Shown: piece by piece, positions 743-56,600 of the stretch
How positions within the stretch are numbered: position 1 is the first letter of the stretch
Layout: each line of letters opens with the position of its first letter
IMG/VR virus record: IMGVR_UViG_3300047355_000120
DNA: 64,000 bases
Strand: one strand, 5' to 3'
Source: an uncultured virus (IMG/VR IMGVR_UViG_3300047355_000120)
Taxonomy: Duplodnaviria; Heunggongvirae; Uroviricota; Caudoviricetes
Program-made: the position numbers and the translations under genes
The notes under the pieces: generated by a model
The model's database searches: none
What the model was told of the DNA's origin: nothing
What the model saw: the letters and a program-made list of their open reading frames with translations, nothing else

Positions 743-763
743 CTAACATTAAATAAATAAATT

Positions 764-1492: not shown

Positions 1493-1565
1493 TGACTCGT
1501 GGTGTAACTGGCAACACGTCTGGTTTTGGTCCAGAAGAGTCTAGGTTCGAGCCCTAGCGAGTCAA
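1493..1565 (+). tRNA. tRNA-Gln (TTG)
   Basis: TGACTCG/CGAGTCA acceptor; TCTGG-TTTTGGT-CCAGA anticodon arm; CTAGG-TTCGAGC-CCTAG T-arm; CCA not encoded. Confidence 0.95.
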
Positions 1566-1584
1566 CTAACTTAAATTTTATAAT

Positions 1585-16574: not shown

Positions 16575-16693
16575 TTTTTCTTTTTAGATTTAGGTACACA
16601 ATTAGGTACTCTTCTGTTTCCTTTTTTCTTCATGCCGATCATTTCGTAACCAGTCCAGCATGGTCCTTTTTTTCCTTTTTTCTTTTTTTTCAT
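16571..16693 (-). CDS. small basic CWxGY...VPNCVP protein (40 aa), not in ORF track
   Basis: MKKKKKGKKGPCWTGYEMIGMKKKGNRRVPNCVPKSKKKK; overlaps both neighbours by 4 nt. Confidence 0.7.
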   Translation of the reverse strand: MKKKKKGKKGPCWTGYEMIGMKKKGNRRVPNCVPKSKKKK

Positions 16694-29812: not shown

Positions 29813-32800
29813 CTAAGGACTAAATGGATATAAGTATATATTAGGTGAACATCCATTTACTGATGAACAAGCTTGTACGTAGCATGAAGTCCAAGGATTA
29901 GGTACGTATACTTTTGCATCACTAACATTAAATCTAGTAGAAAATTTATATTTAGTAGTTCCACCATTGTTATAAGGCGATGAACCTGCTGTTGTTATAA
30001 AACCTTTATAATTACTTACACCACCTCCTGCGTCTGCAAATGAATAAACCGTAGATAAAGCTGATGATGTATAAAATTGTGTCACATATTGACCGTAAGG
30101 CACGTGTGAGTAAGCATAAGAAGATCCAGCTATAGCATTGGGACAGTAATAGCTGTTTGAACCAGTTAAATCTAATGAATATTTGTAAGATTGAGCAGTT
30201 CCACCTGTAACGTTAGATCCGTTCTCGATAACACAAGTGCTATAATATAAGTCGTTTGAATTTACCCAGCAAGCCATTGTTTCAGCTTGTGTTGGAGCTG
30301 TTACGCTTCTTGCATTAAAAGCTGCAATCGCATATTCACCCGGTTGATTATAAGCTAAAACTCTTTGATCGTAAAATACACCGAATTGACCTGTTGCACT
30401 TGTTGTAAGATCTACTTTGATAGCACCAGAACTAGGTGTTCCTGTGTTTGAATTATCTATTGTAAAGTTATTTATATCAGCAATAGCAGCCCAAGAAGAA
30501 CTACTATTTGTTCTATGCCATACCCTCCATGTTACATCTGCATCTAAACCTGCTGGACCAGATGTTGACCATGTAAAACTAGCATTCATAGATAAAGACA
30601 TTGTGCCCTGTGTTAATGCGCTACCAATTTTAAACAGTGTGTTTGTTTGAGACGCGTCTCCTGTTTGTGCTGTGCTTGGAACTACAATAGCATTTGATCC
30701 GTTAAAAAAATCACTAGCTGTTAATGTATTGTCAGATAAATACCAAACGCCTGTTATAGGTCCTGTGGCTTGTCTTTTTGTTATTAATGCATTTTCTATA
30801 GGCATACCCGGAAGATTTGTGTTTATAGGACCGGTTATACAATTTGATTCTATTCCCGCATTAGCAGGTTGAGGACCAACTATAATTATTTGATTAGAGT
30901 TTGAGTTTAAACCACCAACATTAGAAACTCCATTACAATCTTCTATTTTTAAAACCAAAGTATGTTGACCACTTGGAGTGTTATTAGCTACCTGTGTTAT
31001 ATTACCTCCATTTGTTCCGCTTTGTACAATATCAAAAGAAGGCTGACCATTTACTCCAGTAGGATTACCAGATACAATAGACCATTTAAGTTCGCTAGTA
31101 GTGTTTCCAGTATTACCACTGTTTGTTCCATTGACAGCAGTAGTATTTTGACCATAAGCAGTCATACCATTGTTTACATCACCAGTTTGATCAACAGTAA
31201 CGTTTATTGTTGGTAAAGGTGATTGAGTAAAAGAAGGTACAATATTTGTTAAACTACCTTGAAATTGTATAGTTTGTTGTTCGTTAGGAGCAAGCAAAGA
31301 TGTTGAATCAACTTTTATTGTTATTGAAAATGTAAAAACATCATTAGTAATACTGTTTTCATTATATATAAAGTATTGATTTGATGGAGTTACATTAGGT
31401 GTACCAGGAGTTAAACTCGCTTGCGATGTTAATATTCTATAAGCTTTATAAGTAGTACTAGTAGGGTCAGAATCTTGTTGAATATAAAATTTACCAGTTT
31501 GATCACCTAAAGGAGAACTTACAGCAAAAGTAATACAGCTAGTAGGATAAGCTGAATCAAAAGCCGTGCCCTCATTAGATACAGGATAAAAATAATCTGT
31601 TATAGGGTGTCCCGGTGCATCACTTTCTAGTAACTCAAAATTTTGAGCTGTAAAACCAACTGGTCCATCATACCCAGTAAGAACATCTGCATTTAAATCC
31701 GCTATCAAACCTACAGTTCCTGTTTCCCAAAATATATCTAATAATGACTCTACAGGTTCAGTTTCATATATAGCCAAAAAAGGCTGCATGTTAAGGTGTG
31801 TGTTTGCTGAATCAGTTTCTACACCTATTGTTAAAGTAGTTGATAACCTTGCTATTAAAGGTTTAGTATCAATTTGATATAAATTTTCTTGTCCTTGTGG
31901 CCCAAGATTATCAAATTTCATGTTTGAATCTTCAGTTGTAGCTATGCTAATAGCTGTATCTGTTAAATTAGCAGGGTAAAATTGACTATTGTTTTTAGCA
32001 GCGTTTGCTGATGTTCCAACAATATTATTAGTAACTCTACCATATAACTGAACAGAACTTCTAAATTGTTTTTGATCAGGCCCAACTTCTTGTAAGTCTC
32101 TAGGAACTTTGTTTATATTATCATTTATTAAAACTATATTTGCTGTTTTATTTTCTTCGTTTTGAGGAAAAGGTATAGGTGTGGAAGATGTAGCTCCAGA
32201 TATGCTAGGATAACCGTTTAATATACCAGGTAAATAAACATTGTAATATTCTTGTTCTGTTTGTTTAACAACAACCTTATAAGAATACCAACCAATAGGA
32301 TTTATTTTATAAGCAAATTTTTTATCTGCAGTAGGACCTATTAGTGTATCATTTAAATAACTTGAATTAACTCTACCATCTGTTGTTATAGTATATGCTG
32401 GACCTCCAGATACATTTGTAACTTTAACAAAATCTATATATTCACCTCTTAAATAATCATCTACTGCAGGAACAGCAACATTACTTGGATACGTAGTGCT
32501 GTCTAAAGTAAATGTATAATCAGTATTAGTTATAGTAGCTTCTGGTGTTTGTTTTACAGCAAAACCACTGACATTAGTAGGAACAGCATACAACCCTGGT
32601 TCTCCTGATTGTGTAGAAGTTCCTGTTGTAAAATCTGGATAACCATTAAAACCGGAGCTAATAGTATCTGTTACAGAAAGTTGTAATGTTTTTCCAAACC
32701 AATTTTTTATAGTTCCTTGATTTGCTGACGTGTTGTATGGTAAGTACAAAGTAGATCCTAAATAGTCTTGTGCTACTTCTGCAGTTACTGGTGATAATAT

Positions 32801-34315
32801 AACAGAAGACTGTCTTCCATATTTATCAGCTAAAATAAAACCAACTTGATAATTTCTATTTTGTTTTAATGTATGATTAGGGTATTCAATCCAGCTTGTA
32901 GAAAATTTTGAACCTTTATCAATTACTTTTACATCATATTCTATATTACTAGGTGCTGTATGAATATCTTTGAAATTACCATATATTATTCTATTACCAG
33001 CTGTTTCTTGTGAAAAAGCTCTAACTGGAACTTTATCATATACTCTTGTAGTTTGTTCTTGTGGTAGTGTTTTATAAGGTTTACGTGATTGATAATCGTA
33101 AGTGTATATGTTATCTACAGATTTAGATTGAAGATCAGATAAAGAGATAGTTTCTAAAACTTTAACAGCTAATGCATCAGACTCTTTAAATAAAATATCT
33201 AAAGATTTTATTTTAAAATTAGTAGAAATATCTGTACCATTACAGGGAAGAGTTAATAATAATTCTATATTATTTATTTCATTTTCCATCCACTCTACAA
33301 TTGTACTTCTAAAAGCGCTGTCTTCATCACCGTTTTTAAAATAACCTTTTTGTTTAGGAATATAAGCTACTTGACTAAAAGGCGCCATAATAGAATATTC
33401 TCCATCATCAAATCTATATCTATAACTAAATCTAACAAATCTATCTTCTAAATAGTCAGGATCACCAGGCCAATTAGGCGTCTCTGCTTTATTACTCATT
33501 GTTGAGCTTAAAAAAGTAAATATATCTCCTGTAGCAGGTGGAGTTATTGGTTTTGATAAAACAACAACAGTCATTAAAACACCAAGGTTTGCGTCTATTA
33601 CATTTTGTACTGTGACATAGTCAGATGGTGTAACTTTTTCTGTGCCTGTAGAGCTTATAGACATTACAGACATACCTTTTTTAATTGCTGTATTTCTTAA
33701 AACATAAAAAGTAGTTGTGGTAACAGCTTGATTTAATACAGTTCCTTGTGTTTTTTTAAATAAACTTACAGGTAAATAAGGATTATATTTAGCTACAGAA
33801 ATTTGAGTTTCATCTTGATAATAACTACCACTATTGTTTACATTTACTTTTCTTGGTTGGTTTCTGTTATCAGTAAAAAATAATAAATTTTCAATTAAAC
33901 TAGCTTGTATAGGATTAGTTGTAGAAAAATTTAAAAACAAACCATCAGCTATTACAGTTGCCGTTGCTGATCCAGGTACCCATGAATATATAATACACCT
34001 ATCTGTGTTTGAAGTAGGATACGCAGGTTGATCATTTGGATTACTATCAGTATAGTTTGTAGCAAATATATACATTTTAGAAGTATATTCATCTACTAAA
34101 TAACCTATTATTTTTATATTTTTGGGAAGAACTGGTGTTATTGTAGGTGTTTTTATAGCATTACCTAAGACAGTTTCTAAAGAACCAATATCATCAGCTT
34201 CAGATTTACCTACAGAAATATTCTGCGCATCTCTATATTCACCGTTAGGTATTAATCTATCATCCAAGTCTTTATTCATCTTGGATCTTAGAAAACTATT
34301 CTTTATTTCCGCCAT
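29813..34315 (-). CDS. tail structural protein (stabilisation/nozzle-like, 1500 aa)
   Basis: N-term KMNKDLDDRL.PNGEYRDA.NI, LFFTDNRNQPRK.N, RFSYRY.FDDGEYS, NRIIYGN. Confidence 0.7.
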   Translation of the reverse strand: MAEIKNSFLRSKMNKDLDDRLIPNGEYRDAQNISVGKSEADDIGSLETVLGNAIKTPTITPVLPKNIKIIGYLVDEYTSKMYIFATNYTDSNPNDQPAYPTSNTDRCIIYSWVPGSATATVIADGLFLNFSTTNPIQASLIENLLFFTDNRNQPRKVNVNNSGSYYQDETQISVAKYNPYLPVSLFKKTQGTVLNQAVTTTTFYVLRNTAIKKGMSVMSISSTGTEKVTPSDYVTVQNVIDANLGVLMTVVVLSKPITPPATGDIFTFLSSTMSNKAETPNWPGDPDYLEDRFVRFSYRYRFDDGEYSIMAPFSQVAYIPKQKGYFKNGDEDSAFRSTIVEWMENEINNIELLLTLPCNGTDISTNFKIKSLDILFKESDALAVKVLETISLSDLQSKSVDNIYTYDYQSRKPYKTLPQEQTTRVYDKVPVRAFSQETAGNRIIYGNFKDIHTAPSNIEYDVKVIDKGSKFSTSWIEYPNHTLKQNRNYQVGFILADKYGRQSSVILSPVTAEVAQDYLGSTLYLPYNTSANQGTIKNWFGKTLQLSVTDTISSGFNGYPDFTTGTSTQSGEPGLYAVPTNVSGFAVKQTPEATITNTDYTFTLDSTTYPSNVAVPAVDDYLRGEYIDFVKVTNVSGGPAYTITTDGRVNSSYLNDTLIGPTADKKFAYKINPIGWYSYKVVVKQTEQEYYNVYLPGILNGYPSISGATSSTPIPFPQNEENKTANIVLINDNINKVPRDLQEVGPDQKQFRSSVQLYGRVTNNIVGTSANAAKNNSQFYPANLTDTAISIATTEDSNMKFDNLGPQGQENLYQIDTKPLIARLSTTLTIGVETDSANTHLNMQPFLAIYETEPVESLLDIFWETGTVGLIADLNADVLTGYDGPVGFTAQNFELLESDAPGHPITDYFYPVSNEGTAFDSAYPTSCITFAVSSPLGDQTGKFYIQQDSDPTSTTYKAYRILTSQASLTPGTPNVTPSNQYFIYNENSITNDVFTFSITIKVDSTSLLAPNEQQTIQFQGSLTNIVPSFTQSPLPTINVTVDQTGDVNNGMTAYGQNTTAVNGTNSGNTGNTTSELKWSIVSGNPTGVNGQPSFDIVQSGTNGGNITQVANNTPSGQHTLVLKIEDCNGVSNVGGLNSNSNQIIIVGPQPANAGIESNCITGPINTNLPGMPIENALITKRQATGPITGVWYLSDNTLTASDFFNGSNAIVVPSTAQTGDASQTNTLFKIGSALTQGTMSLSMNASFTWSTSGPAGLDADVTWRVWHRTNSSSSWAAIADINNFTIDNSNTGTPSSGAIKVDLTTSATGQFGVFYDQRVLAYNQPGEYAIAAFNARSVTAPTQAETMACWVNSNDLYYSTCVIENGSNVTGGTAQSYKYSLDLTGSNSYYCPNAIAGSSYAYSHVPYGQYVTQFYTSSALSTVYSFADAGGGVSNYKGFITTAGSSPYNNGGTTKYKFSTRFNVSDAKVYVPNPWTSCYVQACSSVNGCSPNIYLYPFSP

Positions 34316-37585: not shown

Positions 37586-39064
37586 CTAGCTTTGGAACAA
37601 TACGAAATTGTTAGCAGCTTGAGTAATTAGACATCTTTCAGATAGCCAGTTAACCTGCATAGCATCTAACTGAGAAGTGTAAACACCACCAGCAGATCCT
37701 GTGATCCAGTTTTTGTATCTTCTGTCGTCTCCTTGTGAAGCTCTGTATCTTACGTGCAAGAATGGTCTTCTAATGTTTGTACCAAGTTGTTGGTCATAAA
37801 CAGTTGAAGTTCCAGCAGGTATTAATACACCGTCAATGTTATTAACAGCTACACCACCTCTAGTTGACATATCATTTAGATATTTCCAGCTAGTTTTATA
37901 GAAGTCATAAGAACCTCTTCTAAAACCAGAGAAACCTAAATTAAGTGCCATATCTTCAGAGTTTTCGAATAAACCGTAAGCAACACCACCAGAGAATCCA
38001 GCAGAAATTTGTCCTAGCATATCGTCAAAATCTAAATCAAGAGATCTGTTTAAGAAAAGCATGTTTTCTTCAATAGCTCCTTGAGTATCAAGGTTTTTAA
38101 GTACTTGATCAAAGTCACTGATACCAGTTCCAGCAGAGAATCCTGTAAATACATTACCTCTTGCTTGGATAGCAGAAAATAGACCTTGAGTACCGTGTGC
38201 AGCTACATTAACGAATCCTGGTACATTACCAAGAGCAGCTTGTGCAGTGAAACCATCACCTGCGATAGCTTGTTCACCTTCAACCATTGACATTTCTAAG
38301 TAGTCATCAAAACGTAATCTTGTTTCTGATTCAGACTTTAAATACCATAAGTATCCTGATGTACCATCTTCAGTTGAAACTTCTACCCAACCGATTTGAG
38401 CCATATCAGACCCATTGATTTGGAATGAATCTTTTATGATAATTGGTTGATTAGAAAATTGAGTAAATCTAGGCTCAATTGATTTAATAGCACCACCTGT
38501 TTGAGCAGGAGCAGCTGTTCCTTTTGCAAATACAGAACCATAAACAAACATTTTTAAGCTGTTTGTTCCATTTCCTAAAGCATTCCAGTTAGCAACTTGG
38601 AAAGGATAAGCTGTTACTGTTGTAACGCCAGGTCCAGCAGCTACAGCTGTAGCTCCAACAATACCTTTAATAGTAACTCCTGTTGCAGGGTTCATTACTA
38701 CAATTGTATCATTTGGAAATATAGCATTTCTAGCAGCAGTTTGATTTACAGCAGCATTTGTTGGGATAGTGATCGTGAAAGCACCAGCTCCAGTTAAGTT
38801 ACAGTTTTGGTAACAAATATGTAACCTGTTTTGTTCAGACCAGATAACCTGATCAGACGTCATTGGCATTTCAGCGCCAACCATTCTAAGAAATCCAGAT
38901 AAAGTTCTATTACCGTATCTTTCAACTTCTGCTTCATATATCTCAGGAAGATATTGTTGAGCGAAGTCATTAGCTCCAGCGTTAAACGCTAGATAATTGC
39001 TTTGCAACGCAAGTTGCTGTTGTGATGGCGTTAATGCGCCAAACACGGGATTAATTGCACCCAT
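37586..39064 (-). CDS. major capsid protein
   Basis: Follows portal and scaffold; QQYLPE.YE.E.ERYGNR, LGFSGFRRGSYDFYK; strong terminator downstream. Confidence 0.85.
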   Translation of the reverse strand: MGAINPVFGALTPSQQQLALQSNYLAFNAGANDFAQQYLPEIYEAEVERYGNRTLSGFLRMVGAEMPMTSDQVIWSEQNRLHICYQNCNLTGAGAFTITIPTNAAVNQTAARNAIFPNDTIVVMNPATGVTIKGIVGATAVAAGPGVTTVTAYPFQVANWNALGNGTNSLKMFVYGSVFAKGTAAPAQTGGAIKSIEPRFTQFSNQPIIIKDSFQINGSDMAQIGWVEVSTEDGTSGYLWYLKSESETRLRFDDYLEMSMVEGEQAIAGDGFTAQAALGNVPGFVNVAAHGTQGLFSAIQARGNVFTGFSAGTGISDFDQVLKNLDTQGAIEENMLFLNRSLDLDFDDMLGQISAGFSGGVAYGLFENSEDMALNLGFSGFRRGSYDFYKTSWKYLNDMSTRGGVAVNNIDGVLIPAGTSTVYDQQLGTNIRRPFLHVRYRASQGDDRRYKNWITGSAGGVYTSQLDAMQVNWLSERCLITQAANNFVLFQS

Positions 39065-39079
39065 AGTTTTTAATTGTTT

Positions 39080-40267
39080 TTAATTGTTAAATGTTCTCTT
39101 TTTAATTCTAAGTTTTGAAGAATCAACACCGCTAACAGCTTTAACTTTTATTCCACCAACAAAAACGTCACCAGACGTAGGTCTAATGTCTTCTTTTATG
39201 TTTTTAGATTTTGCAACTAATTCTCTTGTAGCATCGGATTTACCTTGCTCGTAAAAATGTTTTGCAATAGTGTCAGCATTTTCAGCAGCGTACATAGCTT
39301 TGTGATAACCTTTAACATCTTTAACACTTCCATCATTGTTTAAGAACTTCTTAATTGTATTGGTAATATTTGATTGTTTAGTTGCAACCTCACTAGGATT
39401 TTTAACACCGTATCTAAATTTTTTTTCTCCAATATTGAAATCAAAACCTTTGAATTCATTAGTGAAATAATTTTTAGTATTAGATTTAAAATCCTCATGT
39501 TGTTGTTGAGCCACATTTTGCTCTTCATTGTAGCGATTGAAAAAATCCATAGCTTTTTGTTGATCTTGAGTAACTCCGGGTCTCAACTTGATCTCCTCGT
39601 AATATTTACTCTTTAAACCTTCTAAATGCTTTTTTGCTTTTGCAACCTCTTCTTTATACGCAAGTTTCTTTTTACGGATCTCACGCTCTTCGTCCTCTTC
39701 TTCATCAAAAGAAAAATTATCTTCAATCATGAAATTAATTTCTTCTGAATCTAAATGGGATTTAGCTTGTTTGTAATACTCTCTTAATAAAGTATCGTTA
39801 TCGACATTAGAATAATCTGCGTTTAATCTTACATAATCTTCTAATGTTCCACCCGTTTCTTTCATAAAGTCTACGACTTTTTCGATGTTTTCAGGTAATT
39901 TAGCTATTTCTCTTGACTCTTCTGGAGTAGGAGCAATAACTTTTTCTTCTAGTTTCTCGCCTAATTCAACTATATCTTCTTCTACTTTTTCTTCAATAGT
40001 TTTATCTTCTTCTTCTACAATTTCTTGTATTAAGCTTTCTTCTTCTTCAGCTTTAGAAACTTCTTTGGACTCTGGTATTTGTTCGTCCACTTCAGGGCTA
40101 TTTCCGGTTTGTTCTTCCACAGCCACCTCCTTTGTTTTTCCGACTTGAATGGCATCTGTTTCTTCTTTAGGTTTTGATAAATCGACTTTTATAACATTGT
40201 CTTTTACCAATTGTTTTGGCTTACGTTTAATTTTAAACGTGCCCTCTTGTTTTACTTCTTCTGACAT
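39080..40267 (-). CDS. capsid scaffolding protein
   Basis: Highly acidic N-half, helical C-half; lies between portal and capsid. Confidence 0.75.
   Translation of the reverse strand: MSEEVKQEGTFKIKRKPKQLVKDNVIKVDLSKPKEETDAIQVGKTKEVAVEEQTGNSPEVDEQIPESKEVSKAEEEESLIQEIVEEEDKTIEEKVEEDIVELGEKLEEKVIAPTPEESREIAKLPENIEKVVDFMKETGGTLEDYVRLNADYSNVDNDTLLREYYKQAKSHLDSEEINFMIEDNFSFDEEEDEEREIRKKKLAYKEEVAKAKKHLEGLKSKYYEEIKLRPGVTQDQQKAMDFFNRYNEEQNVAQQQHEDFKSNTKNYFTNEFKGFDFNIGEKKFRYGVKNPSEVATKQSNITNTIKKFLNNDGSVKDVKGYHKAMYAAENADTIAKHFYEQGKSDATRELVAKSKNIKEDIRPTSGDVFVGGIKVKAVSGVDSSKLRIKKRTFNN
40030..40155 (-). CDS. overprinted small basic protein (41 aa, MPFKSEKQRRWLWKNKPEIALKWTNKYQSPKK...) within scaffold gene
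   Basis: Hand translation in the +1 frame; resembles the MPFKSEKQRR small phage protein family. Confidence 0.6.
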   Translation of the reverse strand: MPFKSEKQRRWLWKNKPEIALKWTNKYQSPKKFLKLKKKKA

Positions 40268-40296: not shown

Positions 40297-42672
40297 CTAA
40301 AAATCTACAGGTATTTCACCTTGAGACTCAAAGTCTTGTGGTAACCCATTATTTTGCCTTTGATTTATCATCGCAGACTGTTGGGTAGCTTGTAATTTAG
40401 TTCTTTTATCTTTACGATCCTCAATATCCGCTTCTTTTTGACTTATTGTTGCTGATTGCATTTGAGCTAATTGTAAATCATATTGAAACTGCTCAGCCAT
40501 TAATTGAGTTTTTATCTGAGCTTCTGTTTGCATCCTTTGTATTTCAAACTGAGACTTAGCTTGTTCAATTTGAACTTTAGACTGAGTCATTGCTTCGTTT
40601 TTCTGTACTTCACTCATGGCAGCTGATTCTGCAGCTTTAGCATTAGCTTGAGCTTGAGCTTGTATTTGAGCTGTTTGAGCAGCTTGATCTTCTTTTTGTT
40701 TTTTAATTCGTCTATATTTTAAAACTTGATTTGCTAATGATATATTTTTTATTTCTCTAATATCAATAGCATCTTCAAGATATATTTGATTTTGTTGCAA
40801 AGCCATTTGAATATTTTGTTCTATCATAGCTTTTTCTTCATCGTCAGGCTCTAAATTTAAATATAAACCAAAATCATATAAATGCAAGTCTTTTGCTTCA
40901 TCTAAACTAGCAGTATTAAATCTACCTATACTAGATTTTAAAGCATTGTTAGTTAATGGAAACTCTAAAACATCTGCAATTCTTAATGATATGTTTTCAC
41001 AAGCTCTAAGTGTTAAATACAAACTAGCATCTAATATGTGTTTAGTAGCTATATTTGAAGCATTGGCAGCCATTTTTTGCAATCCGACCAACGCGTCTTT
41101 GTCTGGTAAACTGCCGTCTCGTGCTTCATTTAGTCCCGTTACGTCTCTTATCATTTGTAGATAATACTGATAAGTGTTGATCAACGACTGTATTTTTCCA
41201 TTAGCACTCGATGATTGTAATTCCTGAATAGGTACTTTACCTCTATTAGGATCGCCATCTTGTGTTAAGCTTCTACCAACTATACTACCAGTTTGGAAAT
41301 ACATGTTTAACGCTTCTTGTGGATTATAATTTGTTCCATTACCTAAATCAACTTCTGCTAAACCATCTACATCTACAAATACACCGTCTGGCACCATCCT
41401 TGCAATTACTTGTTGTAATTTTAATGATGTTAATTGTATCATGTCAGCAAAACTAGTCATACGCCCAACTAAAGAATTTATACGCCCTTGATACATTTGA
41501 GGTGCACAAACAACATAATTCATATTTACTTTAGTTAAATCACTATTTGGCCTAGTCATATTTTTTGCTAGCTTCCATTCAAGCATCTGTGGAACACCCA
41601 TTACTTTTACACCACTGTATAAAACCTCTATACTTCTTGAAACTCTATCAAAGTTGTCACTTGGTGGTGGATTAAAAAAATCTTCTTTTTGTAATGTTTT
41701 TTCTAAACCTTGATCAGTCTTTTTTATTTTAAAAACTTGATCAACATATGTTTTATATTCAAAATATAGTAATTGAATTAAATCATTATCATAATTTGGA
41801 TTTGCTATATACCCTTGTCTACCAGGGTATCTAACCATAGTTTCTAACTCTTTATCGGTAAGTTGAGGAAATTGCTTTTTAATTTCTGGTATTGTTAATG
41901 ATTTTATTTCTCCTACATACCATAAATCTTCAAAATTAGGATCATTACTATATGAATAGACTAAATTAGCTGGATCCACATAATCAACCACTACTCCTTC
42001 AGATTTATTAAAACTTGTTTTTACAGCACCAATACCAATTGTAACTATATCTTCAACTAGTCTTTTTTTAGTTAATTGATATTTATTAAATGCTAAAACA
42101 TTATCAATAACTTCTTCTTGTGCTATTTCCATACTTTGCTTGTAATTAAGCTGCATGTGTATTTCTAATTCTTCATCACTTTCTGGTATTTCACTTTCTT
42201 TATTAAGTAAAAAATTCATACCAGTAGCTTCTTGTAATTTTAAAGCTTGTTCCTTAACTAACATATCTTGCATTAATCCCTCAGCATAATCAGTTCTTTG
42301 TTGTTGTGAAAAAGGATCTTGAGCGTATGCATTTATTTCATATTCTTTAGAAGCTATACCATTTACCACTATATTTAAAAACTTAGGTATAATAGGTACT
42401 GGTTTCCAGTCTAAATTTAAATAAGATAAATCACCATTTATTGATAATTCATCTTTATATTTTTGTACAGGTTGTTCACCTCTAGCGTATAAACGTAATC
42501 TATTAAAGTTTGTGTATCCTTGATTCCATTTACCACTGTTTAATCTACCTCCTCTAAACCATTCATATTCAATAGCTTGCCCAACTGCAAGTCCATATTC
42601 TAAAGTTTTCTTTTCCGCCTCAGGTACCACCTGACTTGGAAACGCACTGTTAGTAACATTAGTGTCAATCAT
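40297..42672 (-). CDS. portal protein
   Basis: Downstream of terminase; LRLYARGEQ, SYLNLDWKPVPIIPKF, IRDVTGLNEARDG. Confidence 0.85.
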   Translation of the reverse strand: MIDTNVTNSAFPSQVVPEAEKKTLEYGLAVGQAIEYEWFRGGRLNSGKWNQGYTNFNRLRLYARGEQPVQKYKDELSINGDLSYLNLDWKPVPIIPKFLNIVVNGIASKEYEINAYAQDPFSQQQRTDYAEGLMQDMLVKEQALKLQEATGMNFLLNKESEIPESDEELEIHMQLNYKQSMEIAQEEVIDNVLAFNKYQLTKKRLVEDIVTIGIGAVKTSFNKSEGVVVDYVDPANLVYSYSNDPNFEDLWYVGEIKSLTIPEIKKQFPQLTDKELETMVRYPGRQGYIANPNYDNDLIQLLYFEYKTYVDQVFKIKKTDQGLEKTLQKEDFFNPPPSDNFDRVSRSIEVLYSGVKVMGVPQMLEWKLAKNMTRPNSDLTKVNMNYVVCAPQMYQGRINSLVGRMTSFADMIQLTSLKLQQVIARMVPDGVFVDVDGLAEVDLGNGTNYNPQEALNMYFQTGSIVGRSLTQDGDPNRGKVPIQELQSSSANGKIQSLINTYQYYLQMIRDVTGLNEARDGSLPDKDALVGLQKMAANASNIATKHILDASLYLTLRACENISLRIADVLEFPLTNNALKSSIGRFNTASLDEAKDLHLYDFGLYLNLEPDDEEKAMIEQNIQMALQQNQIYLEDAIDIREIKNISLANQVLKYRRIKKQKEDQAAQTAQIQAQAQANAKAAESAAMSEVQKNEAMTQSKVQIEQAKSQFEIQRMQTEAQIKTQLMAEQFQYDLQLAQMQSATISQKEADIEDRKDKRTKLQATQQSAMINQRQNNGLPQDFESQGEIPVDF

Positions 42673-44876
42673 CTATTAATTATTTTTGATTCATTACCTC
42701 TATTATCATATTTAGAAAAATTTAAATTTACTTTTTCTTTAATAATTTCAGCTATTGGTCTATATTTATTTTTATTACAAGCCATAATTGCTAAACCTGA
42801 ACTAATAGATGCATCGTGCTTTGTTCTATTGTTTATATCAAATGCAGCCCAGTCTTCTAATGTTCTTTGAAAATACATCGTACCATATTGTTCATTGTTG
42901 TAACCTACAAACATTTCAATATATGATTCAATTGCTGCAGCGTGAGCTTGTTTAACATCTTCACTTGAATTAGGTATACCACCTATTTCTTTTTCAGTTA
43001 CTGACATTTTATGTATTGTTTTATCAGGTCTATTCATAGAAAACCCTCTATAACCTCTACGTTTAAAATGATACAGTAATCTAGGTTTATTATTTTCTGC
43101 AAGAAGTGGCATGCTATAAAATACGCAAGCCATAAGTACATCTTCAAAAAATATTTCTGCGGTTTGAGGTCTAGCTATATATTCTAAAAAAAATAAATTA
43201 GGTGGGCAATCATCCATAGTGAATTTAGTTAACCCGTGCAGTGATCCTTTTGATCCTCTACCATCTACGGTTCCTGATATATCATATGAGTCACAGCCAA
43301 ATGCTCCCATATGTTCATTAGCAGGATATTTTTTATTATTTTTTAAAATAATTCTATTTTGTTGACCTAGTTCTGGTATCCATGAAACTAAAAATCTACC
43401 TTGTTGACTTGGCGAAAAAACTACTCTTGAGTCTTTTACTCCACCTTCCCACTGGAAATTACCCTTAGTTACAACTCCAGAATATTTTAAATCTTCATTA
43501 TAATCTATTTGTTCGTAAATTTTAGTTAGATTAAATAAAGATTGTTTTGTTTCATCTCTGAATGCATGTTTTTCTGTACGTGGAAACTGTCTATATAATT
43601 CATTAAGCGCATCAGGATCATCCTTAAGGCCATCTACTTCATTTTCCCAATGCTCGATAACACCGATTTCAATTGGGAAACCGTCTGGCCCCTTCTTTTT
43701 TTCTTTGGGTGTCTCGAAGACAGGTAGTCCATAAGAATCAATGTATCCTTCGTAATTCCATTCCATAGGTATGAACAGGCTATATAATCCCGAGCTAGTC
43801 TGCCCATTTCTGTTTCTTCTGGTAACGTCTGAATCATCATATATTTTTTTATAGTTTCTACCACCTTTATCAAGAGCATTGCTCGTTGATCCCATCATAC
43901 ACTTACCTATAATTCTAGAACCTAATCGTAAACAAGTTTTTGTAACCCTCCAGTTATTTAATATATTATCAGGTTTTTCCCATTTACCACTTTCATCATG
44001 TACAAGTAGTTTTAATTTTTCACCATCATAACTATTGTCCCCTGTGTTTTTCCAGTCAATAGTTGTATCTAATCCTTCAAGTTCTTCTAACTGTTCATTG
44101 GTGTCTAATTTTTTTCTAGTGAATCTACTGGCTGGGACTCTGTATGCAAGCTCCGTCTTCGGCCTATCCATACCGTCTTGAATCGGTTTGAAGAAGAACG
44201 GATAATTAACGGAGATGGGTACGATTTTGTCGGTAAACATTTTCTTAGCATCCGACCCTGACTTTGATAAGACACCGAATCTAGCATCGCTTGATATTGT
44301 GGCCATGTTAACAGCTTCGCCCGATGCCATAAAAGAGAATCCTGAACGCCTGTTCTTAAGATAACACATTCCGTAGCACCTTGTATCTGCTTTGCAAGCT
44401 TCCCAGAATATATAGAATAATCTGTTTGCTTCCCTAAAGTCTGCTTGCCCAACATCAATTTTTGACCATTGCAAATACATGTAGTGAGTACCAGTAATAT
44501 AGATAGCTTTACCTTTATTAGTAAACCAATAACCTTCGTGGCGTCTAGCAAATTCTCTATCAATATACGCATACCATTTATTTTTAAAATCATCTGGATA
44601 TTGTTTCCAGTCAAATATTGTTTTTATTTTTTTTAATGTTTTAGGATACTCATGAACAGTCCACCTGTCGTTTTCTTTATCAACATTATTTTCTTTTGGT
44701 AATGCTATTTTAAGATTTTGTATTTCATATATTTCACCTATTTGTCCAGTTTGAGATATAACAATAACATCATATTCTTTATTATAACCATAATCCCATT
44801 TTTTAGATTTATTTAATCTTTTTATTACGTGGGGTTTTATATGATCAATTACTTTATATAAAGTTTGCTTATACAT
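42669..44876 (-). CDS. terL: terminase large subunit
   Basis: Walker A-like KNRRSGFS, Walker B LLVHDE, GSTSN, nuclease GCDSYD...HDA. Confidence 0.92.
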   Translation of the reverse strand: MYKQTLYKVIDHIKPHVIKRLNKSKKWDYGYNKEYDVIVISQTGQIGEIYEIQNLKIALPKENNVDKENDRWTVHEYPKTLKKIKTIFDWKQYPDDFKNKWYAYIDREFARRHEGYWFTNKGKAIYITGTHYMYLQWSKIDVGQADFREANRLFYIFWEACKADTRCYGMCYLKNRRSGFSFMASGEAVNMATISSDARFGVLSKSGSDAKKMFTDKIVPISVNYPFFFKPIQDGMDRPKTELAYRVPASRFTRKKLDTNEQLEELEGLDTTIDWKNTGDNSYDGEKLKLLVHDESGKWEKPDNILNNWRVTKTCLRLGSRIIGKCMMGSTSNALDKGGRNYKKIYDDSDVTRRNRNGQTSSGLYSLFIPMEWNYEGYIDSYGLPVFETPKEKKKGPDGFPIEIGVIEHWENEVDGLKDDPDALNELYRQFPRTEKHAFRDETKQSLFNLTKIYEQIDYNEDLKYSGVVTKGNFQWEGGVKDSRVVFSPSQQGRFLVSWIPELGQQNRIILKNNKKYPANEHMGAFGCDSYDISGTVDGRGSKGSLHGLTKFTMDDCPPNLFFLEYIARPQTAEIFFEDVLMACVFYSMPLLAENNKPRLLYHFKRRGYRGFSMNRPDKTIHKMSVTEKEIGGIPNSSEDVKQAHAAAIESYIEMFVGYNNEQYGTMYFQRTLEDWAAFDINNRTKHDASISSGLAIMACNKNKYRPIAEIIKEKVNLNFSKYDNRGNESKIINR

Positions 44877-53188: not shown

Positions 53189-53671
53189 TTAACAGGTTGG
53201 ATTAGTATATGTTATTCTTCCGCTTGCATCAACTACAAAATCATTAGCGCATGTTGTGTAATCATAATTGTATGTTCCTCTTTGATTACTCAATGGTGTA
53301 GGGTTATTTAAATTAGAAATACTTTCAAAACCTTGAGCACCAAGTGAATTAACCCATGTTTCACCATTTGTCCACTCTGCTGTTATAAAATAAACAGTTA
53401 TAGGCACATTAGGAGGGGTTTGAGTCCCATCGTAGTATGTTGCTGTAATAGATGTAAAATCTGAACTAAAAGCTGGACCATATGGAGGGTTTGAAGAGCA
53501 AGGAGAATTGTTCCAAGCTGGATAACTTACTCCTGAACCAGCCGCTTGGCCAGAATTCATTAAATCATACATATGTATAGGACCGGTAATTGAACCACTA
53601 GAGCTATAATTATTATAATATAATTCTTTAGCTATTCCTAACATTGATATATTTGTATTTGGTACTGCCAT
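53189..53671 (-). CDS. putative tail tip-associated protein
   Basis: MAVP...ISMLGIA.E N-terminus, typical of genes after S74 fibres. Confidence 0.55.
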   Translation of the reverse strand: MAVPNTNISMLGIAKELYYNNYSSSGSITGPIHMYDLMNSGQAAGSGVSYPAWNNSPCSSNPPYGPAFSSDFTSITATYYDGTQTPPNVPITVYFITAEWTNGETWVNSLGAQGFESISNLNNPTPLSNQRGTYNYDYTTCANDFVVDASGRITYTNPTC

Positions 53672-56600
53672 TATTTAATTTTTTTCTTTAGTTCTTCTAT
53701 TTCAGCTTTTAATTCTTTAATAGCTTCGACTAGTATTGGTGTTATACCTTGATGTCTCATTGATAGCATACCGTTGTCATTTTCTCTAACAAGTTCAGGT
53801 AAAACTTCTTGAACGTCTTGAGCTATAAATCCTATATCTTCTTTTATATCAAGTATACCTTCTGATTTTTCTTTCCAATCAAACGTTACACCTTTTAGTT
53901 TCATTGTTTTTTCTAAAGCATTTTCTACAGGTTTTATATTTTTCTTTAATTTTTTATCTGATGGAGAACCGTATGCAACAATATCACCAAGTATAGTCAA
54001 AGTACCACTTGAGTTTAATTTACCTGTTTGAGCCGGTGTTGATCCTGTTCTAAAACAAACTGCATAACCAGATATTGTAGGCCCTTCATTTGCTTGATCA
54101 TAAAAAGTTGCTGTACTAGTTGTAGGATTTGAGTGATTAGCTCTAAACCTATATGAATCAGTAACAGCGTCTCCAGTTATTGTAAGATCTCCAGTATAAG
54201 AACCAGACATTGTAATATCGTTTGCATTAGCCGTTATACCGTTACTACCAATAACATTTAATGTAACACCACCACTTGTTCCACCACCAGTCATACCTGT
54301 ACCAGCGGTCACGCTAGTTATATCACCTGTTGTTGGTGGAGCTGTCCATACCAAATTTATAGAACCTGAAGCTTTTGATAGATAATAACCTGTTCCAGGT
54401 GCTGCGGTTGTTGGCATTCTCCAATACGTATTAGCTATAGTTGAAGTTGCAGCGGGACCAACTAACTCTAAATTTCCATTACCATATAGCTTAACTAATG
54501 TGTCAGTTACCCTAGCATTTCCACTATTTGAATTTAAATATTCGTTTATAATTGCAAGATAACGAAGTTTATTATCATCTGGTGTAACAATACCTGGATT
54601 AAAGAAAATTTCATTTTCTCTGCTTCCACCAGAATTATTATAAGCAAAAGCCATACCTTGATTGTTTATAGGTGCCGCGTTTGCTGCGTTACCAGCCACA
54701 TACAAATAACCATCAGATCCAGAACCATTCATAATTATTCTTTGATTTGTGGTATCTCCTCTTTGTGTGACTGATTGTAAATCGTCAGCTTCTGAAGTTA
54801 AATACCCACTGTCATTAGTCCACATGGATATATTACCTGATTTGTTGGTTAAAGTACTTGTACTTACGTTAGAAACTAAAGTTGAACTTGAACCAGCTGG
54901 TAATAACATTGTGTTAGTTACACCAGCACTATGAGGCTGAGCAGATAATGTTTGACCATGACTATTATCATAACAATTAAGCTTTATTTTTGCATCTACT
55001 GAAGATCCATCACCTTTTATTGTTAGTATAGCTCCAGAAGGTACTATTTCATCAATAACAGGAGAGGTTAATGTTTTATTAGTTAATGTTTGAGTACCTG
55101 TTTTTGTAACTACGGTGCTGTCTATAGAAAATTCTTCATTTGATAAACTTAAACCTGTTCCAGCCGTATATTGTGTGTCATCATTAGGTGGTGTAGCCCA
55201 AGCGTTATCACCTCTTAAAAAAGTTGAACTACTAGCTGTTCCTGACGCGGATAAATCTAAAGTTGTTAGAGCCGAAGCAGCATCAGGTGTTGTTTTTATA
55301 AAAGTTCCAGCTGTTAACTGTATTGTTGATGCAGTACCTGTGTTTGGTGTTATAGTTACATTAGTGTTATTACTACCAGGAGCTGACAAACTAATAGTAT
55401 AAGTTATAGGTGGTGTATCGCTATCAGCTCTCCAAGCTGGTACGCCACTTGCGTTTGTTTTCCAAACTAAATTAGCATCTGTAGCTGCTGGAGCGGCAAC
55501 ATAACCAGCAACAGTTACTGCATTTGGAATCCATGGTGGTACACTAAAACTACCATCACCATTTAAATAATATGTTCCTCCTTGTGTTCCAGCAGCAGGC
55601 GCAGGCACAAGACCAGCTGTTCCCGCCACATTAGCTGTAGAAGAAACAAAATCATCATATGTTGTTCCAGTAGGCACAACCCATGTTGCATCAGCTCTTA
55701 AAAATTTATCAGCATGAGGGTTTGGTAAAATAGGTACTAAACCAGCTGTACTTGTTGTAACAACACTATAAGTAGTATTAGGTGATGTTAAAGTCATTAA
55801 ATATGGATCTGTCGTAGTACCTGCTCCTGTTAAAGCAGTTCCTAAAGTTCCTGTTGCAGTTTCGAATTTTAAAAATTCATTATTAAGTAGTGTTTTATTT
55901 ACAGGCGTACCTTGTGTATCTCTTACTTTCCATTGATAACTTCCAGCTGCACTGTTAATAGTAAAAGCAGTTGCTGAAGTTCTAGTTACTGTAGTCGCAC
56001 CTGATCCGGTAATAGTTATATCATCAGGACCACCACTACCAGCTAATCTAAGTATAGGGTTACTATTTGATCCACTATTTTGCTCTACAGATAAATCATA
56101 TGTATTTTGAGTATTTGTATCAGGAGAGGTAAGCGTCATTATATAAGGATCGCTTGTACTACCAGAACCTGTAAGCGCTGTACCTAATGATCCTGTAGCT
56201 GTAACAAATTTTAAATATTTTTCGTTATCAACTGTTTTATCTAAATCTGCAAAATCTCTAACATACCATTCAGTATTTTCTTGAGTATCAGTCCAAGGTA
56301 CATTAGCAAACATTTTTTCCGAATTCAACTGTATTGCATAATTTCTATTTGCAGCGTCTGTAGTATATCCTATTTGTACTCCACCTCTAGTACCATCTGC
56401 GGCAAGTGGAAGAGTGTATGTTCCTGGTGGAACATCCCAAGTATTATCTCCTCTTAAAAATGTAGTTCCATCTTTGGTTCCAGTTGCTGATAAATCTATT
56501 GTACCAACAGTTACAGCACCAGTTGCGGCTGAATTTTCTATTCCAGCAGATATAAATGTACCATTAGCATTTGTAAATGTAGTTACACCTGCACCTGTAT

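What the first reader, a model, noticed from the sequence alone, without database searches (positions are those of the whole stretch)
40030..40155. Overprinted MPFKSEKQRR-type gene hidden in the scaffold gene
The +1 frame within the acidic N-terminal region of the scaffold reads MPFKSEKQRRWLWKNKPEIALKWTNKYQSPKKFLKLKKKKA*. This closely resembles a small basic protein that I recall as a stand-alone phage gene (MPFKSEKQRR.LWA..PEIA..W...YG). The same DNA thus encodes a very acidic and a very basic peptide, and local codon use is atypical. It is below the ORF-track size cutoff. Inference: a co-expressed capsid-internal or DNA-binding peptide.
Basis: partly seen in the sequence, partly recalled or inferred. 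Interest (0 to 1): 0.75.

Follow-up and report, generated by a model that had tools for sequence, protein, structure and literature searches.

The report
Small basic gene nested in scaffold gene
A real 41-residue, very basic phage protein gene lies wholly inside, and out of frame with, the gene between the portal and capsid genes of a marine phage, and in that stretch natural selection protects the small gene, not the large one.

Summary
ORF 40030..40155 (minus strand) encodes the peptide exactly as written. It starts 112 nt into the 395-aa ORF 39080..40267, in its +1 frame, between the portal and capsid-like genes.

Evidence that it is a gene:
- ORF length alone is not unusual: 19 such +1 ORFs occur in 39 genes of the window.
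- A profile of 71 small family proteins from elsewhere hits only this frame in the window (E 6e-19).
- 76 of 81 related host genes carry it, always in +1.
- 21 more hosts, only 40-56% identical, carry it too.
- In four sequence groups the nested frame has pN/pS 0.07-0.26, against 1.36-4.83 for the host frame.
- Outside the overlap the host frame is the constrained one.

The overlap lies in a predicted disordered acidic linker. The family (phrog_1375, no Pfam) has about 3,500 representative clusters. It occurs as stand-alone small genes in virion gene modules, often just after the portal gene, and as the N-terminal domain of long virion-module proteins.

So an older gene sits inside a tolerant host frame, rather than a new gene overprinted on an old one. 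Translation and function are untested. A late-made, DNA-binding or capsid-associated peptide is the best guess.

The parts
40030..40155 (-). Nested gene: 41 codons plus TAA. Very basic peptide (pI 10.8) of the MPFKSEKQRR / phrog_1375 family, in the +1 frame of the host gene.
   Evidence: ORF and sequence. Profile of 71 outside proteins, E 6e-19, the only hit in the window. Weak direct phrog_1375 hit, E 0.011. Present in 76 of 81 relatives. pN/pS 0.19 here against 1.39 for the host frame. AF2 model with helices 6-15, 17-27 and 31-39, mean pLDDT 78.8.
40156..40175 (-). A-rich, purine-rich 20 nt upstream of the nested ATG (AAAACCTAAAGAAGAAACAG). This is a start-like context in a genome that does not use Shine-Dalgarno sites.
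   Evidence: A fraction is 0.65, in the top 1.3% of 1176 internal ATGs. The 39 gene starts average 0.53, and only 1 of 39 has an SD-like motif; 43 unique upstream contexts in relatives average an A fraction of 0.64.
39080..40267 (-). Host gene, 395 aa, at the scaffold position between the portal and capsid-like genes. It has a conserved basic N-terminal motif, a disordered acidic linker and a conserved helical C-terminal domain.
   Evidence: no Pfam or PHROG family; 590 relatives in IMG/VR; alignment. AF2 gives residues 1-121 pLDDT below 50 and residues 125-355 mostly helical; purifying selection in this frame on both sides of the overlap.
40157..40267 (-). Host residues 1-37, the conserved N-terminal motif (MSE.VKQEG.FKIK..KPK.L...IKVDLSK). 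It is read in the host frame and runs without a stop into the overlap.
   Evidence: the host frame is open from this start in all 81 sequences; host-frame pN/pS is 0.27-0.46 here; conserved columns.
39905..40156 (-). Host residues 38-121: a variable, acidic linker (30 D+E, 9 K+R), predicted disordered. Its first 42 codons are the overlap.
   Evidence: composition; pLDDT 31-47; poorly aligned; host-frame pN/pS is 1.3-2.1 in the overlap windows.
39080..39904 (-). Host residues 122-395 plus stop: the conserved helical C-terminal domain. This is the part shared with proteins of cultured Flavobacterium, Cellulophaga and Maribacter phages.
   Evidence: residues 124-371 are about 33% identical to those phages; long helices; pN/pS 0.05-0.46 (0.69 in one window near the C-terminus). 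BFVD hits only to uncharacterized proteins of Bacteroidota phages.
40297..42672 (-). Portal gene directly upstream. Its stop lies 142 nt before the nested ATG.
   Evidence: phrog_6547 portal protein, E 2e-148.
37586..39064 (-). Capsid-like virion structural protein gene directly downstream.
   Evidence: phrog_13704 virion structural protein (head and packaging), E 4e-89.

Best explanation
ORF 40030..40155 (minus strand) is a genuine protein-coding gene nested in the +1 frame of the scaffold-position gene of an uncultured marine phage of Flavobacteriia. It encodes a 41-aa protein of the phrog_1375 'MPFKSEKQRR' family. The predicted structure is a helical hairpin (residues 6-27) followed by a lysine-rich tail.

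Shown:
- The frame is homologous to a large family whose members elsewhere are stand-alone genes or N-terminal domains.
- It is conserved in relatives whose host protein is as little as 40% identical.
- Within the overlap, purifying selection acts on the nested frame, and the host frame evolves as a passenger.
- The host frame is open and selected on both sides of the overlap, so translation from the host ATG must read through it.

Inferred:
- The peptide is made by independent internal initiation at its own ATG on the late head-module mRNA. The leader is A-rich and SD-less, as at the other gene starts of this genome.
- The overlap arose because an existing small gene next to the portal gene came to lie inside a permissive, disordered, acidic linker of the host protein. 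GAA-rich poly-Glu in the host frame reads as AAG poly-Lys in +1, which gives the basic tail.
- It was not born de novo in this host gene.

Function is my best guess, at roughly 35%: a late-made, nucleic-acid-binding minor head or virion-internal protein whose hairpin serves as a handle for joining the capsid. The confidence given below is for the gene being real and truly nested, not for this function.
For: Homology:
- tblastn finds stand-alone small ORFs in phage 023Pt_psg01 (an annotated 39-aa CDS), C75C1, P-RSP2 and S-CBS2, and in seven Streptomyces phage records.
- A profile of alignment A1 finds 3507 representative clusters at E<=1e-3 and 340 at E<=1e-10. The match is at residues 1-33 of both small and long proteins.
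- phrog_1375 matches 17 of 31 aligned members, best E 2e-5.
- A profile of 71 outside small proteins hits only this frame in the window, E 6e-19.

Conservation:
- 76 of 81 host genes (80 loci plus the window) carry the ORF, all in +1. 75 start with ATG and 1 with TTG. The ORF starts 112-217 nt after the host start.
- In a second fetch, 22 of 58 small forms are nested in +1. 21 of them lie in hosts 40-56% identical to the window's host.

Selection:
- Variable sites by nested-frame codon position 1/2/3 are 10/8/23, 7/3/17, 6/4/14 and 13/10/24 in four groups.
- pN/pS is 0.19, 0.07, 0.19 and 0.26 in the nested frame, against 1.39, 4.83, 3.34 and 1.36 in the host frame.
- In a sliding scan of 37 unique genes, host-frame pN/pS is 0.05-0.70 everywhere except the overlap, where it is 1.3-2.1. 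The +1 frame is 0.14-0.26 only in the overlap.

Start context and host segment:
- The upstream A fraction is 0.65, in the top 1.3% of internal ATGs, and the genome lacks SD sites.
- The host segment is predicted disordered.

Context bearing on function:
- All 11 scanned non-nested small forms lie among virion genes. 5 have a portal gene within two ORFs upstream.
- Long forms sit beside phrog_3287 virion structural and phrog_4287 ejection-like genes.

Weak evidence:
- Short contigs identical to 39991-40141 or 40059-40213 occur in three metatranscriptome libraries.
Against: - There is no direct evidence of translation. No ribosome profiling or mass spectrometry was available. The RNA-library contigs are shallow (depth 2-2.9), cannot tell the two frames apart, and may be carried-over DNA.
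- The window peptide's own PHROG hit is weak (E 0.011), and no Pfam family matches.
- ORF length alone is unremarkable.
- Five of 81 relatives lack the ORF. Each sits beside ORF-bearing relatives in a quick tree, so the gene is dispensable, replaceable or supplied elsewhere. No second copy was found in those five records, but they are only 13-62% complete.
- One database protein (P0002) shows the N-terminal 27 residues running into host-frame-like acidic sequence. That is either a sequencing error or a real frame-changed variant.
- Function rests on gene neighbourhood and composition only. In P-RSP2 the homolog lies about 7 kb from the record's left end, among hypothetical proteins only, with no annotated virion gene within 4 kb. 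In Streptomyces phage FlowerPower it lies next to a holin gene.
- The structure search found nothing.
Confidence: 0.85

Rival explanations
1. There is no true overlap. The small ORF is an ordinary stand-alone gene between the portal and scaffold genes. The real host protein starts downstream of it, for example at Met135, and the long ORF's 5' extension is open only because Glu/Lys-rich sequence rarely makes stops.
For: In the overlap the host frame shows no purifying selection, with pN/pS 1.3-2.1. The host's first 121 residues are predicted disordered. In another phage lineage the homolog is a free-standing gene at the same place, after the portal gene. The +1 and host frames of such sequence are stop-poor.
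Against: The host frame is open from a conserved MSE..VKQEG..FKIK start in all 81 sequences. It holds the same frame relation (+1) to the nested ORF despite many indels, with offsets of 112-217 nt. The 21 hosts at 40-56% identity hold the same +1 relation to the nested ORF. Host-frame pN/pS is 0.27-0.46 upstream of the overlap and 0.43-0.65 in the linker downstream. So the flanks are coding in that frame, and no stop separates them from the overlap. In the window there is no ATG in the host frame between the nested stop and residue 135.
Confidence: 0.07
2. The ORF is not a gene. It is a chance open frame kept open by constraints on the host protein or on the RNA.
For: +1 ORFs of this size are common in this genome: 19 in 39 genes. 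The direct PHROG hit is weak.
Against: Substitutions concentrate at the nested frame's third codon positions in four groups. The host frame has pN/pS above 1 exactly there, which is the opposite of what host-frame constraint predicts. The frame is homologous to thousands of proteins encoded elsewhere as free genes.
Confidence: 0.02
3. The gene is real, but its product is a membrane-active cationic lysis peptide or outer-membrane disruptor, not a virion or DNA-binding protein. This would resemble other small genes hidden inside phage genes.
For: The peptide has 15 basic and 2 acidic residues and six aromatic residues (F3, W11, W13, W23, Y27, F33) in predicted helices. Two of 31 family members give weak hits to the ponericin antimicrobial-peptide family, best E 0.0017. 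In Streptomyces phage FlowerPower the homolog (gp48) lies between a 'peptidase' gene and the holin gene. From recalled knowledge, nested phage genes such as phiX174 E and lambda Rz1 are lysis genes.
Against: All 11 scanned free-standing small forms lie among head or virion genes, not in lysis cassettes. The same domain heads 200-770-aa proteins in virion modules. There is no hydrophobic segment or signal sequence in the peptide.
Confidence: 0.1
4. The gene is real, but its product acts on the host, for example in takeover, anti-defence, or binding to the ribosome or RNA polymerase, and is never part of the virion.
For: It is small, basic and of unknown family, like many host-directed phage proteins. 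In the T7-like cyanophage P-RSP2 the homolog lies about 7 kb from the left end of the record, among hypothetical proteins only, with no annotated virion gene nearby.
Against: The family is consistently placed in late structural modules in the other sampled lineages. Nesting in a head gene ties its expression to late transcription.
Confidence: 0.12

Closest known systems
Lambda Rz/Rz1 spanin genes (Rz1 wholly embedded in the +1 frame of Rz). Recalled knowledge; only the search listing and the start of the abstract of PMC5295617 were seen.
   Same: A small gene lies entirely inside a larger gene of a tailed phage, on the same strand, in the +1 frame, with its own start codon.
   Different: Rz1 is a lipoprotein of the lysis machinery, and its product binds the host gene's product. 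Here the nested product is a soluble basic peptide in a head-assembly gene, and no interaction is known. Here the host frame is selectively relaxed over the overlap, and the nested gene has free-standing homologs in other phages.
phiX174 gene E inside gene D (a lysis gene in another reading frame of the external scaffolding gene). Recalled knowledge.
   Same: An out-of-frame gene lies inside a scaffolding-protein gene.
   Different: That case is a microvirus with a 5.4-kb ssDNA genome under strong size pressure. E is regarded as a de novo overprinted gene with a transmembrane domain. The present case is a tailed dsDNA phage (the window alone is 64 kb), and the nested gene belongs to a pre-existing family.
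phrog_1375 and the stand-alone 'MPFKSEKQRR' small proteins, for example the 39-aa CDS URG13095.1 of phage 023Pt_psg01.
   Same: They share the N-terminal motif from residue 1, the size (about 40 aa), the lysine-rich tail, and the position between the portal gene and the head genes.
   Different: Those genes are free-standing. The window's copy shares its DNA with another gene and has diverged: WLW in place of YLW, and KYQSP in place of KYGS.
Pfam DUF3008 (PF11450). Recalled as having a similar MP.KS..Q start. It also appeared as a 0.84 feature-score lead, carried by 15% of one cluster's members.
   Same: Small phage or bacterial proteins that begin MP.KS..Q, of unknown function.
   Different: No member of alignment A1 matches the Pfam model at E<=1. 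It is not filed there.
Portal-adjacent minor head proteins such as SPP1 gp7 and the Mu F family. Recalled knowledge, a functional analogy only.
   Same: The gene lies just after the portal gene. That family is also fused to varied cargo domains that travel in the capsid.
   Different: There is no sequence or fold similarity, and the size is about 40 aa against about 300 aa. Encapsidation of the present family is untested.

Membership tests
phrog_1375 / 'MPFKSEKQRR' small basic phage protein family | Significant profile match to family members encoded outside this phage clade | tested here: met
   A profile of 71 outside small proteins scores E 6e-19, 64.5 bits, and is the only hit in the window. 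The direct phrog_1375 hit is weak (E 0.011), but 17 of 31 aligned members match it, best E 2e-5.
phrog_1375 / 'MPFKSEKQRR' small basic phage protein family | The motif MPF(K/Q)S.KQ sits at the very N-terminus, followed by an aromatic-L-aromatic motif and P-E-I-A..W | tested here: met
   Alignment A1 has M1, P2 and Q8 invariant and F3 in at least 90% of rows. The matches start at residue 1 of nearly all listed proteins.
phrog_1375 / 'MPFKSEKQRR' small basic phage protein family | Short length with a basic, lysine-rich C-terminal tail (small forms) | tested here: met
   41 aa, 15 K+R, pI 10.8, tail KKFLKLKKKKA. Compare P0001 and P0003-P0006.
Nested out-of-frame phage genes (Rz/Rz1 type) | The ORF lies wholly within another gene, on the same strand, in a different frame | tested here: met
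   40030..40155 lies inside 39080..40267, offset 112 nt, +1 frame.
Nested out-of-frame phage genes (Rz/Rz1 type) | Both frames are under purifying selection within the overlap | tested here: not met
   Only the nested frame is constrained (pN/pS 0.07-0.26). The host frame is at 1.36-4.83 in the overlap. The host frame is constrained only outside the overlap.
Nested out-of-frame phage genes (Rz/Rz1 type) | Both products are made | not testable with these tools
   Only RNA-library contigs were available. There are no ribosome or peptide data.
De novo overprinted gene | The nested ORF has no homologs outside the lineage that carries the overlap | tested here: not met
   There are thousands of homologs as free genes or N-terminal domains in unrelated phages. 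The nested frame is the phylogenetically wider one.
Pfam DUF3008 (PF11450) | Match to the Pfam model | tested here: not met
   0 of 31 members of A1 match at E<=1, and the window peptide has none. There is only a 0.84 feature-score lead.
Phage scaffolding protein (for the host gene) | The gene lies between the portal and major capsid genes | tested here: met
   Portal phrog_6547 is upstream and phrog_13704 downstream. The order is the same in relatives (L189, L217, L224).
Phage scaffolding protein (for the host gene) | Homology to a described scaffolding family | tested here: not met
   No Pfam or PHROG hit at E<=1. BFVD matches are all uncharacterized proteins. Cultured relatives are annotated 'structural protein' or 'hypothetical protein'.
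Phage scaffolding protein (for the host gene) | Elongated helical protein that is needed for procapsid assembly and absent from mature heads | tested here: inconclusive
   The AF2 model shows long helices at 194-228 and 234-271 and a disordered N-terminus, with mean pLDDT 62.7. Its role in assembly and its fate cannot be tested here.

The most novel reading that the evidence does not exclude
The MPFK helical hairpin may be a general encapsidation or portal-proximal 'handle' of tailed phages. Alone, with a lysine tail, it would be a small internal DNA-binding head protein. Fused to long Gly/Gln/Asn-rich or HExxH-bearing proteins, it would carry cargo into the capsid for ejection. The gene may also repeatedly come to lie inside other genes. 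Its -1 frame is stop-free and reads as an innocuous acidic, disordered segment, so a host protein can extend through it ('reverse overprinting'). This is seen in the scaffold-position gene of a large clade of Flavobacteriia phages and, independently, in an unrelated ORF of more than 2780 aa (L186).
Probability: 0.2. Interest if true: 0.8.

Novelty: new variant of a known kind. Interest (0 to 1): 0.64.

Why it matters
- Gene callers miss this gene. The window's own family search returned only five called homologs, although hundreds of IMG/VR contigs carry the nested ORF.
- It is a clean natural example of a dual-coding stretch in a tailed dsDNA phage where the direction of constraint can be read. 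The embedded frame is the old, selected one. The host protein threads a disordered linker through it.
- That reverses the usual overprinting story. It also shows how disordered linkers can absorb neighbouring genes.
- It flags a very large family of unknown function (about 3,500 clusters at 50% identity) that is tied to head and virion modules. This gives cultured handles for experiments: P-RSP2, S-CBS2, Streptomyces phage FlowerPower gp48 and phage 023Pt_psg01.

Tried and rejected
- Searches used coordinates off by one base for seven loci, so they scanned host-frame fragments. Only the three protein ids in them were valid. The scans were redone correctly through alignment A1.
- Megablast of the head module against cultured phages found no match.
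- tblastn of the long form P0019 against cultured phages found no match.
- Pfam and PHROG scans of 40 long-form proteins gave nothing except one weak tape-measure-like stretch.
- A profile search of solved structures gave only chance-level hits, E>=0.47.
- Foldseek of the peptide model against the PDB found nothing at E<=0.001.
- Complex prediction of portal plus peptide gave no verdict (score 0.00, controls not run). This is no evidence either way.
- The window's own assembly is not held. The nearest record, G001, has one copy of the family, at the homologous place.
- A search for a free-standing copy in the five records that lack the nested ORF found none, but those records are 13-62% complete.
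- Relatives of the L186 giant ORF were only three identical contigs, so no selection test was possible.
- Literature: full-text searches for four 8-residue strings of the family found 0 papers. Searches on overlapping or embedded genes with scaffolding in phages listed general overlapping-gene papers and the Rz/Rz1 paper, none on this case. Only listings and abstract starts were seen.
- A search for the elemovirus description found nothing useful.
- Earlier-findings look-ups returned nothing.
- The careful tree did not finish, so the quick IQ-TREE tree was used.
- Parts of the host gene without RNA-contig cover are not interpreted.
- The 87-aa Ser-rich antisense ORF 39885..40148 (+) and the 62-aa +1 ORF 39340..39528 (-) were rejected as products of low-complexity sequence. 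The +1 frame has pN/pS of about 1 or above at the latter.
Full report
**1. The observation**

One search lists a 41-aa ATG-ORF at 40030..40155 on the minus strand.

It lies inside a 395-aa ORF at 39080..40267 (minus strand). The nested ATG is 112 nt after the host ATG, so it is in the +1 frame, at host residues D-A-I-Q. The host ORF sits between a portal gene (40297..42672, phrog_6547, E 2e-148) and a capsid-like gene (37586..39064, phrog_13704, E 4e-89).

The peptide has 15 K+R against 2 D+E and a pI of 10.8. The host-frame reading of the same DNA has 4 K+R against 13 D+E and a pI of 4.1. GC is 0.42 in the ORF and 0.47 in its first 90 nt, against 0.32 for the host gene.

**2. Is it more than chance?**

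Length alone is not. The +1 frames of 39 long genes of the window contain 19 ATG-ORFs of at least 41 aa, including another of 62 aa in the same host gene. Three independent lines do exceed chance.

(a) Homology
- tblastn against cultured phages finds an annotated stand-alone 39-aa CDS in phage 023Pt_psg01 (MPFKSEKQRRYLYKNEPAIAKKWTKKYGGKIKKTKKRKK; 78% identity over 23 aa, E 3e-4).
- It also finds similar small ORFs in Phage C75C1, Prochlorococcus phage P-RSP2, Synechococcus phage S-CBS2 and seven Streptomyces phage records.
- A profile of 31 members (A1) searched against 1.84 billion representative proteins finds 3507 clusters at E<=1e-3 and 340 at E<=1e-10.
- A profile that I built only from 71 small outside proteins hits one frame among the window's 1486 frames of at least 20 aa: 40033..40188 (minus strand), E 6e-19.
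- Caveat: those 71 proteins were themselves retrieved with a profile that included nested members.
- phrog_1375 (unknown function) matches the window peptide weakly (E 0.011). It matches 17 of 31 aligned members, best E 2e-5. Pfam has nothing.

(b) Conservation
- The host protein has 590 confirmed relatives in IMG/VR, and the best 80 (55-99% identity) were fetched.
- In all 80 loci plus the window the host frame is open from a conserved MSE..VKQEG..FKIK start. Four ORFs are cut by contig ends.
- 76 of the 81 carry an MPFK-type ORF in the +1 frame. 75 start with ATG and 1 (L036) with TTG. The ORF starts 112 to 217 nt after the host start.
- The five without it are L041, L045, L048, L066 and L068.
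- A second fetch, seeded with a free-standing family member, gave 58 small forms, of which 22 are nested in +1. 21 of those lie in homologs of the window's host protein that are only 40-56% identical to it.

(c) Selection

| Group | Unique sequences | Variable sites at nested-frame positions 1/2/3 | pN/pS nested frame | pN/pS host frame |
|---|---|---|---|---|
| Window type | 33 (90 nt) | 10/8/23 | 0.19 | 1.39 |
| Variant B | 7 | 7/3/17 | 0.07 | 4.83 |
| Variant C | 5 | 6/4/14 | 0.19 | 3.34 |
| Distant hosts | 17 | 13/10/24 | 0.26 | 1.36 |

A sliding scan over 37 unique full-length host genes shows the switch in place.
- Host-frame pN/pS is 0.05-0.70 in every 15-codon window except the three to four that span the overlap. 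There it is 1.3-2.1, and host-frame pS drops to 0.08-0.14.
- The +1 frame is at 0.14-0.26 only in those windows.

This pattern cannot come from constraint on the host protein. It is what a coding +1 frame predicts.

**3. Is the overlap real?**

The rival reading is that the host protein starts after the small gene. Against it:
- The flanks are coding in the host frame. pN/pS is 0.27-0.46 upstream and 0.43-0.65 in the linker just downstream.
- No stop separates the flanks from the overlap in any of the 81 sequences.
- The +1 relation is kept through many indels.
- The window has no host-frame ATG between the nested stop and residue 135.

So a ribosome that starts at 40267 must read through the overlap. 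AlphaFold2 predicts host residues 1-121 as disordered (pLDDT 31-47) and residues 125-355 as helical. The alignment is poor exactly in this linker. The host protein therefore threads a tolerant, acidic, disordered segment across the small gene. I give the no-overlap rival 0.07.

**4. What the host and the phage are**
- The host protein has no Pfam or PHROG family.
- Its C-terminal domain (residues 124-371) is about 33% identical to proteins of Flavobacterium elemoviruses, Cellulophaga phages and Maribacter phage Panino. These are annotated 'structural protein' or 'hypothetical protein' and occupy the same place between portal and capsid-like genes.
- The two that I read, Panino and elemoF, have no nested ORF.
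- BFVD fold matches are uncharacterized proteins of Cellulophaga, Flavobacterium and crAss-like phages.
- 'Scaffold' is therefore an inference from position and fold.
- Only 1 of 39 gene starts has a Shine-Dalgarno-like motif, and the leaders are A-rich, with a mean A fraction of 0.53. This fits a Bacteroidota host.
- The nested ATG has an A fraction of 0.65 in its 20 upstream bases, in the top 1.3% of 1176 internal ATGs. 43 unique contexts in relatives average 0.64.
- This supports independent internal initiation but does not show it.

**5. The family and its contexts**

The domain is predicted as a helical hairpin (helices 6-15 and 17-27, pLDDT 85-93) followed by a less confident lysine-rich helix. 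It occurs in three architectures.

(i) Free-standing small genes
- Of 26 small forms with at least 7 kb of DNA, 12 are not nested.
- In the 11 that I scanned, all lie among virion genes.
- Seven have the order phrog_2524, (small gene), GroES-like phrog_3188, phrog_28737, phrog_36003. In three of the seven the portal gene (phrog_1216) is visible just upstream.
- Two lie directly after a portal gene.
- One follows a major head protein gene.
- One lies beside ejection-protein-like genes.
- Phage 023Pt_psg01 has the first layout.
- Exceptions in cultured phages: P-RSP2, where it lies about 7 kb from the record's left end with no annotated virion gene nearby, and FlowerPower, where it lies between a 'peptidase' gene and the holin gene.

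(ii) Long forms
- The domain forms the N-terminal 30-35 residues of proteins of 200-770 aa. These are rich in Gly, Gln and Asn and sometimes carry a second copy of the domain.
- Two of the seven long forms read (those of 222 aa or more) carry an HExxH motif.
- None of the 40 scanned has a Pfam family, and only one has a weak PHROG hit.
- In five of six loci examined, the long form follows a 652-727-aa ORF. That ORF is phrog_3287 'virion structural protein' in the three scanned. Weak 'DNA ejection protein' matches lie nearby.

(iii) The nested form described here

The ESM Atlas's nearest clusters are 40-43-aa viral hypothetical proteins (0.95-0.96). DUF3008 is only a 0.84 lead.

**6. Origin**
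- The nested frame belongs to a family spread over unrelated phages, whereas the overlap is confined to one lineage of host genes. So the small gene is the older element. The host frame across it is the newer, unconstrained reading.
- The free-standing position of the gene in other lineages, just after the portal gene and before the head genes, is the place where the nested copy sits.
- GAA-rich poly-Glu in the host frame reads as AAG poly-Lys in +1. This makes an acidic linker and a basic tail mutually compatible.
- A quick tree of the host C-terminal domain has 65 rows. Cut ORFs under 380 aa and identical duplicates were left out. The careful search did not finish.
- That tree needs five separate changes for the five ORF-less sequences. 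Three of them are sister to ORF-bearing ones with support of 95 or more (L048/L058, L041/L043, L045/L042).
- It also scatters the peptide variants. This suggests that the N-terminal and linker module, with its passenger gene, is exchanged or lost.
- Separately, L186 carries a family member nested in +1, again at host residues N-A-I-Q, inside an unrelated ORF of more than 2780 aa. Only identical copies of that contig exist, so it cannot be tested.

**7. Mechanism and rivals**

Shown:
- It is a conserved, selected coding frame of a known but uncharacterized family, wholly inside another coding frame.

Inferred:
- Translation is by internal initiation on the late head-module mRNA.
- The product is a highly basic hairpin-plus-tail peptide that acts in or near the capsid. 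It most likely binds nucleic acid or the packaging vertex.
- Its supply is tied to that of the head proteins.

I put the gene and the nesting at about 0.85, and this function at about 0.35. The rivals are a cationic lysis or membrane peptide (0.10), a host-directed early-type effector (0.12), no true overlap (0.07) and a chance ORF (0.02).

Short contigs identical to 39991-40141 or 40059-40213 occur in three metatranscriptome libraries at depth 2-2.9. This is weak evidence: DNA carry-over is not excluded, and the contigs cannot tell the frames apart.

**8. Comparison and novelty**

The closest architectures are lambda Rz1 in Rz and phiX174 E in D (both recalled knowledge). This case differs in three ways:
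- The nested gene is the ancestral one, with free-standing homologs.
- The host frame is selectively relaxed over the overlap.
- The setting is a head-assembly gene of a large tailed phage.

Full-text searches found no description of the family's motif or of a nested gene in a tailed-phage scaffold gene (listings only). I rate it a new variant of a known kind.

Noticed in passing
L186:5001-5132 (+), inside the ORF L186:1769-10114: A second, independent nesting. A 44-aa member of the same family lies in the +1 frame, again at host residues N-A-I-Q, inside an unrelated ORF of more than 2780 aa in another viral contig. Only three identical contigs exist, so no selection test was possible.
   Followed up: partly
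Proteins P0009, P0013, P0019, P0030, P0053, P0071, P0087; loci L097, L117, L127, L128, L137, L157: Long proteins (200-770 aa) begin with the same 30-residue domain. They then run into Gly/Gln/Asn-rich sequence, often with a second copy of the domain near the C-terminus. In P0030 and P0071 there is an HExxH motif. They sit after a phrog_3287 virion structural gene. None of the 40 scanned has a Pfam family.
   Followed up: partly
P0002 (58 aa): A database protein identical to the window peptide for 27 residues, which then continues into acidic sequence that looks like the host frame. It may be an indel error in an assembly or a natural frame-changed variant.
   Followed up: no
L048 and L066, +1 frame of the host gene: Two relatives that lack the MPFK ORF have a different, mutually similar 42-43-aa lysine-rich +1 ORF (MLKKKNQSKLLSM...) at the same place. 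It may be chance, or another passenger.
   Followed up: no
window 44105..44614 (-), inside the 735-aa ORF 42669..44876 (-): A 169-aa TTG-ORF (162 aa from its first ATG) lies in the +1 frame of the 735-aa gene upstream of the portal gene. It is the longest +1 ORF in the window's 39 long genes. It was not examined for conservation.
   Followed up: no
window, all gene starts: Only 1 of 39 long ORFs has a Shine-Dalgarno-like motif, and the leaders are A/T-rich with a mean A fraction of 0.53. This fits a Bacteroidota host, in line with the Flavobacterium, Cellulophaga and Maribacter phage relatives.
   Followed up: partly
window 670..743 and 1493..1566 (+): Two tRNA genes, tRNA-Met (CAT) and tRNA-Gln (TTG), lie near the left end of the window.
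   Followed up: no
window 16690..24561 (-), 29813..34315 (-), 53671..58230 (-): Very large ORFs of 2623, 1500 and 1519 aa on the same strand as the head module. They were not analysed.
   Followed up: no
L169, L176, L183, L187, L213, L231, L238: In another marine phage lineage the head module carries a GroES-like gene (phrog_3188) with an N-terminal extension. It lies directly after, or within a few ORFs of, the free-standing MPFK gene and before a phrog_28737 protein of about 320-335 aa.
   Followed up: no
window 39885..40148 (+): An 87-aa serine-rich antisense ORF lies opposite the acidic linker. It is the expected mirror of GAA-rich sequence and was judged an artefact.
   Followed up: partly
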